A stretch of DNA of 11,129 nt from a virus (Duplodnaviria > Heunggongvirae > Uroviricota > Caudoviricetes): the IMG/VR virus record IMGVR_UViG_2617270947_000015; one strand, written 5' to 3'. A program made the position numbers and the translations under genes. Of the stretch, positions 1 to 9,587 are shown one piece after another. Every line of letters begins with the position of its first letter. The first letter of the stretch is position 1. The notes under the pieces were generated by a model that was not told where the DNA came from, made no database searches, and saw only the letters and a program-made list of their open reading frames with translations.

Positions 1-327
1 TCACTTTTTCCAGAGGCGGTCGAACTCCGCCTTCGCAAAATAAGCGGAAGCCTGGCGAAGGATATCGTTACTGCGGCGCAGTTCACGATTTTCACGTTCC
101 AGCTCTTTCAGACGCTGACGTTCAGCGGTGGTGAGCCCTCCATCACCGCCCCCGGTATCCCGCTCATGCTGGCGAACCCAGACACGCAGAGTCTCCGGCG
201 TACAGCCAATCTTTGGAGCAATGGAACAAATTGTCGCCCATTGTGAGTCATATTCGCTCTGACTTTCCAGAACCATACGGACTGCCCGTTGACGGACTTC
301 GGGGGAAAAACGAGTATTTTTAGTCAT
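1..327 (-). CDS. IS3-family transposase OrfA (108 aa, HTH protein)
   Basis: Translation [21 protein letters not shown]...[32 protein letters not shown] has the typical IS3-family OrfA HTH plus leucine-zipper layout. It lies 54 bp inside the terminal inverted repeat. Confidence 0.85.
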
Positions 328-381
328 CCTGTTTACCTCTTTCTCAGGAAGTTTAGTCTCCAGGATTCCCGGGGCGGTTCA
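1..381 (-). mobile_element. Partial IS3-family insertion sequence (IS629/IS1203/IS3411-like); one terminus at 381, remainder off the left edge
   Basis: Read on the minus strand from 381 the sequence is TGAACCGCCCCGGGAATCCTGGAGACTAAACTTCC...AGGTAAACAGG-ATG, which matches my recollection of the IS629-type terminal inverted repeat followed directly by orfA. The orfA ORF is complete; orfB would lie beyond position 1. Confidence 0.8.
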
Positions 382-716
382 GGGGCTTCGTTCGTCCTGA
401 AAAACAGAATCTGCAAAATTTTGCCGAAATTATTCCGGTTATTTCCGGCCTTACTGGCGGGAGTGAAACCAATATTGTTAACGCCAGAGCGTTGCAGATG
501 TTTGATGATAAAAAGGGAGTAAATTTAACTTACACCCCTGACGGCAATCAGAATATGAGCATTATCTCTGAGTCAGGTTTCTACAAACTAATAAAAACAA
601 AAAGCGCCCCGTTGCCGGAGCGCCTTTGTGAACAATTAACCTACTGCGCAAAAAATGAATCTGAGCAGTGGGATTATATCAACCATGTGGAGAAGCGCCA
701 CAATTGCCGAATAACG

Positions 717-747
717 GGCAAAACAAAGGCCACCCGCTACGGTGGCC
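717..747 (-). terminator. Rho-independent terminator for the leftward small-gene operon
   Basis: Perfect 7-bp stem GGCCACC (728-734) / GGTGGCC (741-747) with a 6-nt loop. On the minus strand it is followed by TTTGTTTTG. It sits 80 bp downstream of the minus-strand ORF that ends at 827. Confidence 0.6.
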
Positions 748-826
748 CCTCGACACAAGCTACACGTTATCCCCAACGCATGAGCATTGCCAACAATGCC
801 ACATTTGCGGCTGGTGGGCAATGCAA

Positions 827-1000
827 TCAGTCTGGTTCAGTTCGTTGCCATACCTGCAATGAGCGCTTTTCCCTGTACTCTTTAAGGAATTGCTCAAGGG
901 CAAAAGCACATGGCGCGAATCTTTCTGATTCATGCTCTATCTTTCTGCGCCGTCTTTTCCGTGCCGGTGATAATGTTTTGGTCAATTCTTTATCGGTCAT
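827..1000 (-). CDS. Hypothetical small basic protein (57 aa from the second ATG)
   Basis: Lys/Arg/Glu-rich translation MTDKELTKTLSPARKRRRRKIEHESERF.... An AGGA lies about 9 nt upstream of the ATG at 1000; the ORF-track start at 1015 has no Shine-Dalgarno. It is second in the leftward operon and is followed by the terminator at 717-747. Confidence 0.5.
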   Translation of the reverse strand: MTDKELTKTLSPARKRRRRKIEHESERFAPCAFALEQFLKEYREKRSLQVWQRTEPD

Positions 1001-1057
1001 TGTGTTGTCCTGCATAGCAATGCGCCGTAGTTACTCACACCACGGCGCTGGTGATGG

Positions 1058-1237
1058 TTACTCCTGCTCTTTGGCCTTGCGGCGCTGGCGGCGTTTGATT
1101 TCGCCGCGCATGGCTGCGTTTATAAACTGTCCCGTGCTTTCGCCTTCTTCTTTCACGTTCTCCATGCCTTCAATAATTTCATGGGCAATACGTGCAGTTA
1201 CAGATTGTGATTTTGCATTCTTTGGACCCGTTGCCAT
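1058..1237 (-). CDS. Hypothetical small protein (59 aa); candidate regulator, first gene of the leftward operon
   Basis: The internal ATG at 1237 is preceded on the minus strand by GAGGGG at good spacing (GAGGGGTTAAAC-ATG). Translation is MATGPKNAKSQSVTARIAHEIIEGMENVKEEGESTGQFINAAMRGEIKRRQRRKAKEQE. It sits directly beside the operator-bearing divergent promoter region. The ORF-track start at 1276 is probably too long. Confidence 0.5.
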   Translation of the reverse strand: MATGPKNAKSQSVTARIAHEIIEGMENVKEEGESTGQFINAAMRGEIKRRQRRKAKEQE

Positions 1238-1257
1238 GTTTAACCCCTCATGTTTTT

Positions 1258-1339
1258 GGTGTAAGACAATATACACGAAAAAAAAATATTTTGAAGGGTT
1301 GACGTGTAAGACACCATTGTTTTACATTGTGTCTTACAC
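1258..1339. promoter_or_regulatory. Divergent promoter region with three copies of an 11-bp operator-like motif
   Basis: GGTGTAAGACA at 1258-1268, GTGTAAGACAC at 1304-1314 and its exact inverse GTGTCTTACAC at 1329-1339. Rightward candidate promoter: TTGACG (1299-1304) and TACATT (1323-1328), 18-bp spacer. Leftward candidate on the minus strand: TTCAAA and TATATT around 1270-1297. The motifs overlap the spacer or sit just downstream of the -10 of both promoters. Confidence 0.55.
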
Positions 1340-1436
1340 CTTATTGATGAAAGGCACAGAAACGACGAAACCCCGCACTGTAGGAGCAGTAACGGGGCTT
1401 CTAACCACCAACGATAGCAACAGTATCGAGGTAGCT

Positions 1437-1637
1437 ATGAGAAATCATACCACACACCCGAAAGGGCGGGACTCGCACAACCTGAATAAATACATCTGGC
1501 GTTTTATCGCCCTGAGCACGGCACAACCGCGCGTGATTACCATTGAGGCCACCAGCGAACAGGAAGCACGCCAGCAATCTCCGGCTGGCTGCGTGATGGT
1601 ATTTGCTGCCCGTATTCGTCAGGGGGTAGGCTTATGA
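1437..1637 (+). CDS. Hypothetical protein (66 aa), first gene of the rightward operon
   Basis: GAGGT Shine-Dalgarno 5 nt before the ATG at 1437. Translation MRNHTTHPKGRDSHNLNKYIWRFIALSTAQPRVITIEATSEQEARQQ.... Its stop overlaps the next start (ATGA). The long 492..1637 track ORF is in the same frame but its upstream part looks non-coding. Confidence 0.5.
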   Translation: MRNHTTHPKGRDSHNLNKYIWRFIALSTAQPRVITIEATSEQEARQQSPAGCVMVFAARIRQGVGL

Positions 1638-1864
1638 GCCAGGAAATCACACTACAACAGGCAGCAGAACGCGCCCACCAAATCGAAGTTATTTGCGCAC
1701 TGGCAGAGGATTACCCTAGCATGATGACCGACAGCGAATCAGGGGCAATCATCGGCTTACTTAAACGCCTTAGCGGTGAGGTCTGCGTATTCCTGAGCGA
1801 TGAACAGGAAAGAAGAACGCTTATTTCTAACGAAAAAAAATGCGGAGGGGTACATGTGCAATAA
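1634..1864 (+). CDS. Hypothetical protein (76 aa)
   Basis: AGGGGGTAGG Shine-Dalgarno upstream and ATGA overlap with the preceding gene, indicating translational coupling. Translation MSQEITLQQAAERAHQIEVICALAEDYPSMMTDSESGAIIGLLKRL.... Confidence 0.55.
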   Translation: MSQEITLQQAAERAHQIEVICALAEDYPSMMTDSESGAIIGLLKRLSGEVCVFLSDEQERRTLISNEKKCGGVHVQ

Positions 1865-2084
1865 AACCACACCGGACGCAGCAGAAGAAGCAATGCAAAT
1901 ACTGATACGTGCGCTCGTTGATGTTACCCACATGGTGGAGATTATGGAGAGAAAATCACAGTCGGAGCACGACAAAAGAAAACTTAAAACAATAAAAATA
2001 ATTGCCAAAAACTCGCTGATAAAAGTTACAGACATCCTTAATGAGGACATTAAAAGAATAAGGGAGAAAATTTGTGATGCATAA
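1854..2084 (+). CDS. Hypothetical protein (76 aa), AT-rich cargo gene A
   Basis: Internal ATG at 1854 preceded by GGAGGGG; the ORF-track start at 1800 would overlap the previous gene by 65 nt. Translation MCNKTTPDAAEEAMQILIRALVDVTHMVEIMERKSQSEHDKRKLKTIKIIAKN... is predicted helical. The local sequence is visibly more AT-rich than its flanks. Confidence 0.5.
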   Translation: MCNKTTPDAAEEAMQILIRALVDVTHMVEIMERKSQSEHDKRKLKTIKIIAKNSLIKVTDILNEDIKRIREKICDA

Positions 2085-2304
2085 AATCCCTTTTGAAGTA
2101 TTAATCCACTCTGAAAACGCATTAATTAAAGCACGCGAAATGAATGCGTTGTTAATTAAATTAATTGAAGTGCCGGAAGGTGGCGAAGATCATTCATCAT
2201 TAATGTTTGCCGCTGTTCAGACATTATTGACACCTGTTATTGATGAACTCAATAAGGCTATGGCAATTCACGAGAATAATAAAGCGCCCCACACCGGAGA
2301 ATAA
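2077..2304 (+). CDS. Hypothetical protein (75 aa), AT-rich cargo gene B
   Basis: ATG at 2077 overlaps the stop of the previous ORF (GTGATGCATAA) with AGGGAG upstream. Translation MHKIPFEVLIHSENALIKAREMNALLIKLIEVPEGGEDHSSLMFAAVQTLL.... AT-rich. Confidence 0.5.
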   Translation: MHKIPFEVLIHSENALIKAREMNALLIKLIEVPEGGEDHSSLMFAAVQTLLTPVIDELNKAMAIHENNKAPHTGE

Positions 2305-8400: not shown

Positions 8401-8430
8401 AAATCACTTTCTGTTACGCCATCAAATACG

Positions 8431-8580
8431 CAATACAACAACCACGTATTTTTTTAAAACTATTTGATTCAATTAGCATTTTTTTATTTTTAGCATCAAA
8501 AAAACACTATCAGGTTGTTGTATTGCTCTTTATTTTTACTTAGTTATCAAATGGATATGACAAACAATTAAACAACAACC
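8431..8580. repeat. AT-rich non-coding region with three copies of a GGTTGTTGT-type motif (candidate cosB-like protein-binding sites for the inverted cos copy)
   Basis: CAATACAACAACC at 8431-8443 and its perfect inverse GGTTGTTGTATTG at 8513-8525, 69 bp apart, plus AAACAACAACC at 8570-8580. The sequence between them is extremely AT-rich. Confidence 0.5.
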
Positions 8581-8975: not shown

Positions 8976-9587
8976 CTGGTTGATATTTTCGAAATTCGCC
9001 AGCGGCGAACATCGGGGAAACCAGCCTAACCCGTTGATATTTTCGGAAACCTCAATTTGAGGAAGTCGGCGCGGTAACTCGCTGAACTTAAAGCAAAGCG
9101 CAAAATTGCGCTTGCTGAATAATCATTATGATTACGCAGATGATTAAGGAATGACCGAAGGCGGAAATTCGCCTGTGGTTAATGGGGGAGTTGCAGATCT
9201 GCAACTCGACCATGAAACTACGGAAACTACCCGTAGTTTGGGTAGTAAGAGTAACACCCAGATTTTGGGGCTTACTCGTGATACCCAAATTTGGGGTATC
9301 GGTGGCAACCATAACGACTTTCGTTACGGTTGATGCTTTTACCCCATTGGGGGAAAGGTATTACGATAATCATAACACCTACCGAACAGGTAAAGCCCAC
9401 CAGCCTGATTAACGTTTAACCGGAAAAAAATTCCGGTAGGTGGGGATCCCCATATAGACATTAACGCCCCTCATGAATTGGTGCGCTTCCCCCTGGAAAG
9501 ATGATCCGCCTGTATATTTCTTGTGTCTATTTGTTCCACGTTGTTTCATACGGTGCACCGAACGGTGTAGTTAATGGTGTAGTCAAT
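8966..9587. repeat. Repeat- and palindrome-dense non-coding region between the last island ORF and phoQ (candidate att arm / regulatory region)
   Basis: Direct repeats GTTGATATTTTCG(A/G)AA at 8979-8994 and 9033-9049; GCGGTAACT at 8968-8976 and 9071-9079. Palindromes AAGCGCAA-aa-TTGCGCTT (9096-9113), GTTGCAGATCTGCAAC (9190-9205), AAACTAC-cc-GTAGTTT (9224-9239), CCGGAA-aaaaa-TTCCGG (~9420-9437), CGGTGCACCG (9551-9560). Tandem GGTGTAGTTAAT / GGTGTAGTCAAT (9564-9587). Confidence 0.5.

What the first reader, a model, noticed from the sequence alone, without database searches (positions are those of the whole stretch)
1258..1436. Three-operator divergent switch, and a structured ~100-nt leader before the first rightward gene
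The 11-bp motif GTGTAAGACAC occurs three times, one inverted, positioned over the -10 or spacer of both divergent promoters. This implies a single repressor controlling both the small leftward genes and the rightward replication operon. Downstream, the leader before the first rightward gene contains a CCCCG...CGGGG hairpin and a CGATA-n7-TATCG stem abutting the Shine-Dalgarno. The leader could be a cis-regulatory or small-RNA element; that part is speculative.
Basis: partly seen in the sequence, partly recalled or inferred. Interest (0 to 1): 0.55.

Follow-up and report, generated by a model that had tools for sequence, protein, structure and literature searches.

The report
Satellite island repressor switch and leader RNA
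A small E. coli phage-satellite island controls its replication genes with a three-site switch, probably run by a tiny, so far uncharacterised DNA-binding protein, followed by a conserved folded RNA leader absent from the RNA family library searched, sitting where related satellites carry an antisense immunity RNA.

Summary
Both observations are real. GTGTAAGACAC occurs three times (1259, 1304, 1329; the first copy has one mismatch) and nowhere else in the window. The copies sit over two back-to-back promoter-like sites.

In about 120 related loci the three sites keep their positions. Their sequence changes with the N-terminal strand of the divergent 59-aa YlcI/YnfO protein. That protein models as a ribbon-helix-helix DNA binder, so it is the probable repressor.

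- Fourteen of 18 base pairs show compensatory changes.
- This held again in an independent set of loci.
- It matches no Rfam family. It is not a C4/CI RNA, although more distant relatives carry C4 at exactly this place.
- Its function is inferred only, most likely post-transcriptional control of the toxic first gene.

An unexpected extra: one + strand reading frame has no stop codons through leader, operators and the antisense of the repressor genes in 36 of 40 locus types. This parallels what I recall of P4 eta/kil and is unexplained.

Verdict: a new variant of known kinds, moderately interesting.

The parts
1058..1237 (-). 59-aa YlcI/YnfO-family protein, predicted ribbon-helix-helix repressor of the switch
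827..1015 (-). Conserved 62-aa ORF, second gene of the leftward operon; function unknown
   Evidence: phrog_21027 at 1.6e-15. Full-length tblastn matches at 44-100% identity in most E. coli loci. It is better conserved than the overlapping 57-aa ORF.
600..627 (-). Terminator-like hairpin with T-run downstream of the leftward operon. A second hairpin plus T-run lies at 727-746 (read by eye).
   Evidence: Scan hit with 12 pairs, 7 of them GC. The 727-746 hairpin GGCCACC..GGTGGCC followed by TTTGTTTT on the - strand was read from the sequence.
1259..1269 (+). Operator O1 (GTGTAAGACAA), over the end of the leftward -10 and the predicted start; predicted autoregulation
   Evidence: The same position carries the type-specific operator in other islands, followed by a conserved CAGTATAC (= TATACT -10 on the - strand).
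1268..1295 (-). Leftward promoter-like site P_L (-35 TTCAAA 1295-1290; -10 TATATT 1273-1268)
   Evidence: The -10 is conserved as TATACT/TATATT across YlcI-type loci.
1299..1328 (+). Rightward promoter-like site P_R (-35 TTGACG 1299-1304; -10 TACATT 1323-1328)
   Evidence: TTGAC is kept in nearly all loci of the alignment and the -10 keeps TAnnnT, while the sequence between them changes.
1304..1314 (+). Operator O2 (GTGTAAGACAC), abutting the -35 and covering the spacer of P_R
1329..1339 (-). Operator O3 (GTGTAAGACAC, inverted), directly after the -10 of P_R and covering the predicted start
1339..1354 (+). HP1: weak 5'-proximal hairpin of the leader (CCUU..AAGG). In other types a stronger hairpin of different sequence sits at the same place, partly overlapping O3.
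   Evidence: Pairing is kept with unrelated sequences in other types, judged by eye. This was not tested statistically.
1367..1401 (+). HP2: interrupted GC-rich hairpin (9-bp lower stem, small internal loop, 4-5-bp upper stem). Not followed by a U-run.
   Evidence: 11 of 13 pairs have changes on both sides in A3 and 12 of 13 in the independent A4. 83-90% of cells are paired, against 43% or less when the partners are slid.
1402..1411 (+). Single-stranded C/A-rich linker UAACCACCAA; CUNACCA is near-invariant in all loci
   Evidence: Invariant columns in A3. Kept in Pectobacterium, Hafnia, Rahnella, Serratia, Cedecea and Kosakonia loci.
1412..1428 (+). HP3: 5-bp stem with 7-nt loop at the ribosome-binding site (CGAUA-N7-UAUCG). 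The loop varies freely. ACC 1407-1409 can pair with GGU 1430-1432.
   Evidence: 99-100% of cells are paired, with A-U to U-A and C-G to U-A swaps. In type-B loci the Shine-Dalgarno sequence lies in the loop. A similar hairpin precedes the SD of P4 kil and of C4-type loci, judged by eye.
1428..1439 (+). Shine-Dalgarno GAGGU and start codon ATG 1437
   Evidence: Read from the sequence. Invariant in type-A loci.
1437..1637 (+). Icd-like 66-aa protein, first gene of the rightward operon. Its stop overlaps the next start (ATGA at 1634-1637).
   Evidence: NF033153 at 1.4e-19. PGAP gives the same name. The same domain is found in the P4 legacy 'cI' ORF at aa 85-132, i.e. P4 kil.
492..1637 (+). Stop-free reading frame in phase with the Icd-like gene (381 codons). 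It runs through leader, operators and the antisense of both leftward genes. Meaning unexplained.
   Evidence: In the closest relative without the IS it is a 430-codon ORF.

Best explanation
Window 1238-1436 is the control region of a Gram-negative phage-inducible chromosomal island.

The switch. The 59-aa YlcI/YnfO-family protein (1058-1237, leftward) is a ribbon-helix-helix repressor. It binds three 11-bp sites of the form GTG-N5-CAC.
- O2 and O3 bracket the -10 of the rightward promoter. They shut off the operon that starts with the Icd-like gene and continues into primase and capsid genes.
- O1 sits on the start of the leftward promoter, so the repressor limits its own synthesis.
- The central 5 bp of the sites and the N-terminal strand of the protein form an immunity specificity pair that differs between islands.

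The leader. Once the promoter fires, the roughly 100-nt leader folds into three elements.
- A 5' hairpin.
- A 13-bp interrupted GC hairpin.
- A small hairpin at the ribosome-binding site, reached through a near-invariant C/A-rich single strand.

This leader most likely sets how well the toxic Icd-like gene is translated. The genes overlap start to stop, so it would also set how far transcription and translation continue into the operon. It occupies the position that the C4/CI antisense immunity RNA occupies in P4-type relatives, but it is a different RNA.

What is shown and what is inferred.
- Shown: the repeats, their positions, operator-protein covariation, the predicted fold, RNA covariation, and absence of a C4 match.
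- Inferred: binding, repression, autoregulation and the translational role of the leader.
For: Operators.
- Three copies only, 0 of 200 shuffles. They sit on promoter-like hexamers.
- In 54 distinct E. coli upstream regions and 11 loci from other genera, the sites keep their columns while their sequence changes by type.
- 17 strand motifs map almost one-to-one onto operator cores. Cross-genus repeats of the same pairing: QQLNARF with GTGCGATTCAC in E. coli and Pectobacterium; QMTTVRI with GTGTATTTCAC in E. coli and Hafnia; QT[VI]AARV with GTGTTCAACAC in E. coli and Kosakonia; QSVTARI with GTGTAAGACAC in the window and in L102.
- Loci lacking YlcI carry a classical Arc/CopG-type protein with its own palindromes at the same places.

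Leader.
- A3 (50 distinct sequences): 87% paired against 42% or less when slid; 14 of 18 pairs with changes on both sides; 0 of 500 shuffles.
- Covariance model R1 finds the element directly upstream of the ATG in 24 of 32 loci not used to build it. There it is 92% paired with 14 of 18 compensatory pairs.
- Context: Icd-like = P4 kil. Relatives without an R1 hit carry a C4 RNA whose loop pairs with the Icd-like SD.
Against: - No experiment. Promoters are consensus matches of 9/12, no better than many others in the window.
- One strand motif (QQLNARF) goes with two different operators, so the strand is not the only specificity determinant.
- The single-sequence fold of the leader is not outstanding (z = -1.83).
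- HP3 is weak and does not clearly mask the SD. The SD is 3' of the stem in type A and in the loop in type B, so simple occlusion is unlikely.
- No partner for the near-invariant linker was found.
- The stop-free frame shows that something besides RNA structure constrains this region.
Confidence: 0.62

Rival explanations
1. The 'leader' is really coding sequence. The Icd-like protein would be made as a longer form whose N-terminal extension is encoded by 1340-1436 or further upstream, like the nested eta/kil pair of P4. Conservation would then reflect the protein, or merely the need for an open frame, rather than an RNA element.
For: - The frame in phase with ATG 1437 has no stop for 1080 nt upstream.
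- 36 of 40 control-region types have one stop-free + frame, against 6.3 expected.
- Many database entries for the protein are 95-116 aa long, and phrog_6196 includes the extension.
- P4 has the same layout: 456 nt stop-free upstream of kil, covered by the legacy 'cI' ORF.
Against: - Base changes in HP2 and HP3 are compensatory for pairing and give unrelated peptides.
- Many types have no in-frame ATG/GTG/TTG within the roughly 100 nt transcribed from P_R.
- In type-B loci the open frame is not the Icd-like frame.
- ATG 1437 with GAGGU is invariant.
- PGAP calls the short form in complete genomes.
- The two readings are not exclusive: an RNA structure can lie inside a frame kept open for another reason.
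Confidence: 0.15
2. The leader is a diverged C4/CI-type antisense RNA, or another small RNA released by processing. It would act in trans on the Icd-like ribosome-binding site or on a helper-phage transcript, giving RNA-based immunity.
For: - It has the same position as C4 in P4 and in eight related loci.
- The linker CUAACCACCA resembles the ..CUACCACCA 3' flank of C4 in those loci, and HP3 resembles the hairpin before the C4 target b2. Both are judged by eye.
Against: - No Rfam hit in 1200-1700 even at E <= 10, while the same search finds C4 in P4 at 74.9 bits.
- R1 does not hit P4.
- No consistent complementarity of 8 nt or more between leader and the downstream 1.5 kb in any type.
- None to the rest of the window for the near-invariant linker.
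- HP2 types assort independently of both operator type and HP3 loop type.
Confidence: 0.1
3. The operators are bound by some other factor, not the YlcI/YnfO protein. Candidates are the 62-aa protein, the AlpA-like regulator, or a host or helper protein. The 59-aa protein would have another role.
For: - The 62-aa ORF is co-transcribed and conserved.
- One strand motif pairs with two operators.
- There is no direct binding evidence.
Against: - The 62-aa protein is 100% identical across islands with different operators, so it cannot supply the specificity.
- Operator type tracks the YlcI strand across genera.
- Where YlcI is replaced by an Arc-like protein, the operators change class.
- The predicted RHH fold fits the role.
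Confidence: 0.08
4. HP2 and HP3 are DNA-level inverted repeats, such as protein-binding palindromes or origin or recombination sites, rather than RNA hairpins.
For: - Inverted repeats keep complementarity on both strands.
- The HP3 arms are invariant in type A while the spacer varies, as in a dimer-binding site.
- Almost no G-U pairs are seen.
Against: - HP2 changes sequence completely between types while keeping an asymmetric internal loop and its pairing. A sequence-specific duplex-DNA binder would not require that.
- The elements lie between a conserved promoter and a conserved start codon, on the transcribed strand.
- The opposite-strand hits of R1 score far lower.
Confidence: 0.05

Closest known systems
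Ribbon-helix-helix repressor switches (P22 Arc/Mnt immI, plasmid CopG, Omega of pSM19035)
   Same: - A small (about 50-60 aa) protein with a predicted strand-helix-helix fold.
- Short repeated operator sites overlapping promoter elements.
- A site on its own promoter, implying autoregulation.
- Specificity carried by the N-terminal strand, here inferred from covariation.
   Different: - No significant sequence match to any solved RHH protein or to a Pfam family. It belongs to the uncharacterised YlcI/YnfO (DUF3950) family.
- The operator form GTG-N5-CAC in three copies, 45 and 25 bp apart, is its own arrangement.
- It controls a satellite island's Icd-like/primase operon.
P4 immunity region (P_LE, seqA, CI RNA, seqC, eta/kil) and P1 immI (c4-icd-ant)
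   Same: - The first gene after the leader is an Icd-like/kil protein.
- A structured RNA of 60-90 nt lies between promoter and that gene.
- A small hairpin sits just before the SD.
- A stop-free frame in phase with the gene covers the leader.
- Primase lies further downstream.
- That CI RNA causes premature termination by pairing with seqA and seqC is stated in PMC4825925.
- That eta and kil are nested, and that their translation counteracts termination, is from my own memory of the P4 literature.
   Different: - The leader is not a C4/CI RNA by covariance model.
- It has no antisense target sites.
- Immunity specificity lies in a protein-operator pair that P4 lacks.
- The control region is divergent, with a leftward repressor operon.
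Gram-negative PICIs (EcCICFT073 type; four-zone layout described in PMC10111431)
   Same: The closest relative without the IS has integrase, an AlpA-like HTH gene, a Bro-N remnant, primase, SSB, then major capsid and decoration genes. This matches the integration, Bro, replication and late zones, and the islands that carry their own capsid gene.
   Different: - That paper notes C4/isrK immunity RNAs in some Bro zones. It does not mention a ribbon-helix-helix protein or a leader.
- I found no description of a YlcI/YnfO repressor-operator switch or of this leader in the searched literature.
SaPI Stl / str divergent control region
   Same: A master repressor is transcribed divergently from the replication/packaging operon of a phage satellite. 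Operators lie in the intergenic region, and repressor specificities vary between islands.
   Different: - Stl proteins are larger HTH proteins that are inactivated by binding helper-phage proteins.
- Here the protein is a 59-aa predicted RHH with no obvious sensor domain. Some alleles carry a roughly 40-aa C-terminal extension.
- The inducing signal is unknown.

Membership tests
Ribbon-helix-helix (Arc/MetJ/CopG) transcriptional repressors | Strand-helix-helix fold of about 45 residues | tested here: met
Ribbon-helix-helix (Arc/MetJ/CopG) transcriptional repressors | Sequence membership in a recognised RHH family | tested here: not met
   No Pfam family at E <= 1. No PDB sequence match at E <= 10. 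Only NCBIfam YlcI_YnfO_N matches.
Ribbon-helix-helix (Arc/MetJ/CopG) transcriptional repressors | Repeated operator subsites overlapping the regulated promoter | tested here: met
   Three copies lie on the -35/spacer, the -10/+1, and the divergent -10/+1. The positions are conserved in other types.
Ribbon-helix-helix (Arc/MetJ/CopG) transcriptional repressors | N-terminal strand residues determine the DNA sequence recognised | tested here: met
   Tested by covariation only. 17 strand motifs map almost one-to-one onto operator cores, repeated across genera, with one exception.
Ribbon-helix-helix (Arc/MetJ/CopG) transcriptional repressors | Dimer or tetramer binding to DNA, with repression | not testable with these tools
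   Needs gel shift or footprinting and reporter assays.
C4/CI antisense RNA (Rfam RF01695, clan CL00128) | Match to the covariance model at or near the gathering score | tested here: not met
   No hit at the gathering threshold in the window. None at E <= 10 in 1200-1700. Positive control: P4 CI RNA scores 74.9 bits, and c4-a1b1 and isrK are also found.
C4/CI antisense RNA (Rfam RF01695, clan CL00128) | Loop sequences complementary to target sites flanking or covering the RBS of the downstream gene, covarying between immunity types | tested here: not met
   There is no consistent complementarity of 8 nt or more between leader and downstream sequence. In true C4 loci of the same data set, the pairing and its covariation are obvious.
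C4/CI antisense RNA (Rfam RF01695, clan CL00128) | Located in the leader of an operon whose first gene is icd/kil-like | tested here: met
P4 eta/kil-type nested genes | Icd-like domain at the C-terminus | tested here: met
   NF033153 is found in the window protein and in the P4 legacy 'cI' ORF at aa 85-132.
P4 eta/kil-type nested genes | In-frame open frame upstream that covers the leader RNA | tested here: met
   Stop-free length upstream of the ATG is 1080 nt in the window and 456 nt in P4.
P4 eta/kil-type nested genes | The long form is translated, and its translation counteracts Rho-dependent termination | not testable with these tools
   Many types lack an in-frame start codon inside the P_R transcript. 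Needs ribosome profiling and Rho-inhibition experiments.
Intrinsic terminator / attenuator | GC-rich hairpin followed directly by a U-run | tested here: not met
   HP2 is followed by CUUCUAACCACC. The scan found no terminator-like site in 900-1700.
Gram-negative phage-inducible chromosomal island | Integrase, AlpA-type regulator, primase/replication genes, small size, packaging-related late genes | tested here: met
   Gene content of the window and of its closest relative L001. The layout matches that described in PMC10111431.
Gram-negative phage-inducible chromosomal island | Induction and mobilisation by a helper phage | not testable with these tools
   No experimental data for this island.

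The most novel reading that the evidence does not exclude
The control region is built to be crossed by translating ribosomes. Besides the repressor-controlled promoter, transcripts coming from the integrase/AlpA/Bro side would read rightward through the antisense of the repressor operon, the operators and the leader. The reading frame kept free of stop codons would let ribosomes follow the polymerase the whole way. That would shield the antisense transcript from Rho. It would also interfere with repressor expression and deliver ribosomes to the Icd-like gene or the gene after it. On this reading the leader hairpins are elements that must work both as an untranslated 5' UTR (from P_R) and as translated sequence (from upstream). 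That is an extended, protein-repressor version of what I recall of the P4 eta/kil anti-termination logic.
Probability: 0.2. Interest if true: 0.8.

Novelty: new variant of a known kind. Interest (0 to 1): 0.6.

Why it matters
- It gives a testable function, immunity repressor, to the uncharacterised YlcI/YnfO (DUF3950) family. That family includes two E. coli K-12 genes of unknown function. It also supplies a natural table of strand-to-operator pairings that could serve as a recognition code for small orthogonal repressors.
- Sequence similar to this control region is present in 1711 of 5426 complete E. coli genomes. A protein-operator module and the C4 antisense RNA therefore appear as alternative immunity modules in front of the same toxic Icd-like gene.
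- It defines a conserved, covariation-supported leader RNA that is absent from Rfam. [quoted passage not shown] That extension may be this leader region, but I did not compare the two loci.
- The stop-free frame across a divergent promoter region is unusual. If it has a function, it points to translation-coupled read-through as part of satellite induction.

Tried and rejected
- Rfam, at gathering threshold on the whole window and at E <= 10 on 1200-1700: nothing relevant, only chance microRNA-like hits on the O2/O3 palindrome.
- tRNA/tmRNA scan: none.
- Phage database: no DNA match to 1238-1640. By tblastn only one small 'induced prophage' record matched.
- C4-type cis-antisense model: searched for leader-to-downstream complementarity in every type, and found only scattered chance 8-mers.
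- Island-encoded antisense partner of the near-invariant linker: none in the window.
- Intrinsic terminator or attenuator reading of HP2: there is no U-run.
- CsrA-type GGA loops: considered because the window's HP2 loop is UAGGAG. Rejected because other types have unrelated loops.
- boxA/nut and put-type antitermination: only a loose by-eye resemblance of GCUUCUAACCA to boxA. The scan showed no more terminator-like sites than in shuffles (15 found, 13.7 expected) and none that looked strong on the + strand of the operon. Not pursued.
- RNase P/tRNA-like 3' ACCA: the ACCA does not directly follow the stem, so it was left as a remark.
- Homology of HP2 to the C4 basal stem: strand polarity of the G-rich and C-rich arms is opposite, so rejected.
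- Pfam and PHROGs on the 315-aa stop-free translation: only a roughly 30-aa Bro-N/Ant remnant at its start, and the leader-encoded part of phrog_6196.
- K-12 ynfO context: same protein family but no divergent Icd-like gene and no triple operator.
- Literature searches for YlcI/YnfO function, the motif strings, and satellite RHH repressors found nothing relevant. The P4 paper PMC176756 is not held.

Full report
**What the window is**

The window is part of an E. coli chromosomal island next to phoQ. Its closest complete relative (NZ_CP082775, locus L001) carries, in order:
- integrase and an AlpA-like HTH gene;
- a leftward YlcI/YnfO-family gene;
- a rightward Icd-like gene and several small genes;
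- a DUF4222 gene, a primase-family gene and SSB;
- major capsid and head-decoration genes.

PHROGs give the same picture for the window's own ORFs. This matches the four-zone layout of Gram-negative phage-inducible chromosomal islands described in PMC10111431, including islands that carry their own capsid gene. In the window an IS3-family element (orfA at 1-327, Pfam HTH_Tnp_1) ends at about 381. It separates the control region from the integrase side.

**Check of the observation**

GTGTAAGACAC occurs at 1304-1314 (+) and 1329-1339 (-) exactly. It occurs at 1259-1269 (+) with one mismatch and nowhere else in 11 kb. None of 200 shuffles gave three matches.

The consensus scan places two back-to-back promoter-like sites here:
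- TTGACG-18-TACATT rightward (1299-1328);
- TTCAAA-16-TATATT leftward (1295-1268).

O2 abuts the rightward -35 and fills the spacer. O3 begins right after the rightward -10. O1 overlaps the end of the leftward -10 and the predicted start. The leader hairpins are present as described. The single-sequence fold is only modestly better than shuffles (z = -1.83).

**The switch, by comparison**

Eighty IMG/VR loci with a near-identical Icd-like gene gave 54 distinct upstream regions. Eleven loci from Edwardsiella, Pectobacterium, Hafnia, Rahnella, Serratia, Cedecea, Leclercia and Kosakonia were added, and 32 more from a second viral scan.

Across these loci TTGAC of the -35 is kept in nearly all, the TAnnnT -10 is kept, and the leftward TATACT -10 stays in place. 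The three repeats keep their positions but have a different sequence in each island type, usually of the form GTG-N5-CAC.

The repeat sequence tracks the N-terminal segment (KSQxxxxRxPH) of the divergent 59-aa protein. Seventeen strand motifs map almost one-to-one onto operator cores. The same pairing recurs in different genera, and for the window's own type also in L102, which has a different leader type. One motif, QQLNARF, goes with two operators, so other residues also contribute.

Where the YlcI-type gene is absent, a classical Arc/CopG-like protein with its own palindromes takes its place.

I found no paper on the function of YlcI/YnfO. The 62-aa ORF downstream is conserved, but it is identical across islands with different operators, so it cannot provide specificity.

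**The leader, by comparison**

From the A-rich spacer to the ATG, 50 distinct sequences were aligned (A3). A structure of two helices was tested: HP2 (window 1367-1401, 13 pairs) and HP3 (1412-1428, 5 pairs). Results:
- 87% of cells paired, against 32-42% when the partners are slid;
- 14 of 18 pairs with changes on both sides;
- none of 500 column shuffles reached the observed values on any of the five measures.

A covariance model built from this alignment (R1) was then run on the 32 loci of the second scan, which were not used to build it. It hit 24 of them directly upstream of the start codon, at E from 2e-11 to 3e-27. In those hits 92% of cells pair and again 14 of 18 pairs show compensatory change. 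That alignment is fitted to the model, which favours pairing.

Other features of the leader:
- Between the helices lies a single-stranded stretch with CUNACCA near-invariant in all genera.
- A 5' hairpin of variable sequence sits at the start of the transcript and overlaps O3. I judged it only by eye.
- HP3 has two forms. In type A (the window) the Shine-Dalgarno sequence follows the stem, and two or three of its bases can pair with ACC of the linker. In type B the Shine-Dalgarno sequence lies in the loop.
- HP2 types, HP3 loop types and operator types assort independently, so the region is mosaic.

**What the leader is not**

- It matches no Rfam family, even at E <= 10 on a 500-nt stretch. 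The same search finds the P4 CI RNA at 74.9 bits, together with its seqA/isrK partner. R1 does not hit P4.
- No type shows consistent complementarity between leader and downstream RNA.
- The window contains no complement of the near-invariant linker.
- HP2 is not followed by a U-run.

**What the context says**

The first gene is Icd-like (NF033153). The legacy 'cI' ORF of P4 carries the same domain at residues 85-132, which is P4 kil.

The eight loci of the second scan that lack an R1 hit have a clear C4/CI RNA just upstream of their Icd-like gene. Its loop (UUUCCAGUAAC) is complementary to GUUACUGGAG at the Shine-Dalgarno sequence. A second loop-target pair covaries between L113 and L115.

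So two alternative modules precede the same kind of gene:
- an antisense-RNA module of P4/P1 type. CI RNA causes premature termination by pairing with seqA and seqC, as summarised in PMC4825925;
- the protein-operator module with the leader described here.

A small hairpin just before the Shine-Dalgarno sequence is common to both, judged by eye. The Icd-like stop overlaps the next start (ATGA at 1634-1637), and the following genes are equally tightly packed. Initiation at the first gene could therefore govern the whole operon. This last step is inference.

**Proposed mechanism and its limits**

I think the most likely account has three parts:
- The RHH protein binds O2 and O3 to close the rightward promoter.
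- It binds O1 to limit its own synthesis.
- After derepression the leader sets translation and stability of the Icd-like message, and through coupling sets expression of the replication genes.

The switch part is well supported by comparison. The RNA structure is well supported. The function of the leader is a guess, informed by what C4 does at the same place in relatives. The near-invariant linker suggests recognition by a conserved factor, but I could not identify one.

**An unexpected feature**

The reading frame of the Icd-like gene has no stop codon for 1080 nt upstream of its ATG in the window (the listed ORF 492-1637 is 381 codons). In L001, which has no IS, it is a 430-codon ORF that begins just after the AlpA-like gene.

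Among 40 control-region types less than 70% identical, 36 have one + strand frame with no stop between -200 and -45. Dinucleotide shuffles predict 6.3. The other two frames carry two to nine stops each.

The frame runs from roughly the leftward terminator to one of two end points:
- the Icd-like stop in type A;
- the gene after Icd-like in type B, where the frame is +1. In L094 it starts by overlapping the stop of a 265-aa Bro-N/KilAC antirepressor gene.

P4 and the C4-type loci show the same property.

The peptides encoded across HP2 are unrelated between types. Many types also have no in-frame start inside the P_R transcript. What seems conserved is openness, not a protein. This explains why many database entries give the protein as 95-116 aa. 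It may also explain the 'long N-terminal extension' mentioned for an Icd-like cell-death effector in ECOR61.

From my memory of the P4 literature, translation of the nested eta/kil genes counteracts immunity-specific termination. A similar translation-coupled read-through from the integrase side is my most novel reading, at about 0.2 probability.

**Novelty and verdict**

Ribbon-helix-helix switches and regulatory leaders before icd/kil genes are both known kinds. Three things appear new:
- assigning the YlcI/YnfO family to this role, with a natural specificity table;
- a covariation-supported leader RNA outside Rfam that replaces C4 in a widespread group of islands. Sequence similar to the control region is in 1711 of 5426 complete E. 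coli genomes;
- the stop-free frame across a divergent control region.

I rate it a new variant of a known kind, with interest 0.6.

Noticed in passing
window 492-1637 (+); L001 11352-12644; most loci L002-L125: One + strand frame has no stop codons through leader, operators and the antisense of the leftward genes. This holds in 36 of 40 locus types against 6.3 expected from shuffles. P4 and C4-type loci show the same upstream of their kil/Icd-like gene. It is openness rather than a conserved peptide.
   Followed up: partly
window 1-381: An IS3-family element (orfA with HTH_Tnp_1; its end reads ...CCTGGAGACTAAAC..CCGGGGCGGTTCA) is inserted relative to the closest relative L001. It cuts the 5' end of the long open frame and of a Bro-N/Ant-like remnant (window about 504-600). 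It also separates the control region from the integrase/AlpA side.
   Followed up: partly
L113, L115, L119-L124 (about 1300-1500 of each locus): These more distant Icd-like loci carry a clear P4-type C4/CI RNA. Its loop is complementary to the Shine-Dalgarno region of the Icd-like gene. A second loop-target pair covaries between L113 (TTCTCAC/GTGAGAA) and L115 (TTGCTAC/GTAGCAA).
   Followed up: partly
window 1628-2265: The small genes directly after the Icd-like gene are unrelated to those of the closest relative (no blastn match), while both flanks are 96-99.7% identical. This is a mosaic accessory segment inside the operon.
   Followed up: no
window 8430-8526 and 9179-9298: An AT-rich stretch is flanked by a 26-nt inverted repeat (GCAATACAACAACC.../...GGTTGTTGTATTGC). 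Further right lie two long near-perfect palindromes (9179-9216, 9228-9298) and direct repeats TAAC..GTTGATATTTTCG (8973, 9027). These are candidate origin, packaging or attachment features near the right end of the island.
   Followed up: no
L002, L003, L048, L079 and similar loci (leftward gene): Some YlcI-type alleles are 99-106 aa long. They have a conserved C-terminal extension (..AEGSGENPL.SSLDALAQVEK.G.KAAEEIGQLVT.AREELQRRK) that the 59-aa forms lack. It may be an oligomerisation or signal-sensing module.
   Followed up: no
L126 4757-4990 (E. coli K-12 ynfO, Qin prophage): K-12 YnfO belongs to the same family (..RNIRFPNQMIEQINIALEQKGSGNFSAWVIEACRRRL..), closest to the AKKNIRF allele group. 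It sits beside nohA and ydfO, with no divergent Icd-like gene and no triple operator upstream.
   Followed up: partly
window 727-746 and 600-627 (- strand): Two hairpin-plus-T-run elements lie downstream of the 62-aa ORF. The first (GGCCACC..GGTGGCC, then TTTGTTTT) is conserved in many loci, where it shows up as a recurring 'KTKA' in the antisense translation. It marks roughly where the stop-free frame begins.
   Followed up: no
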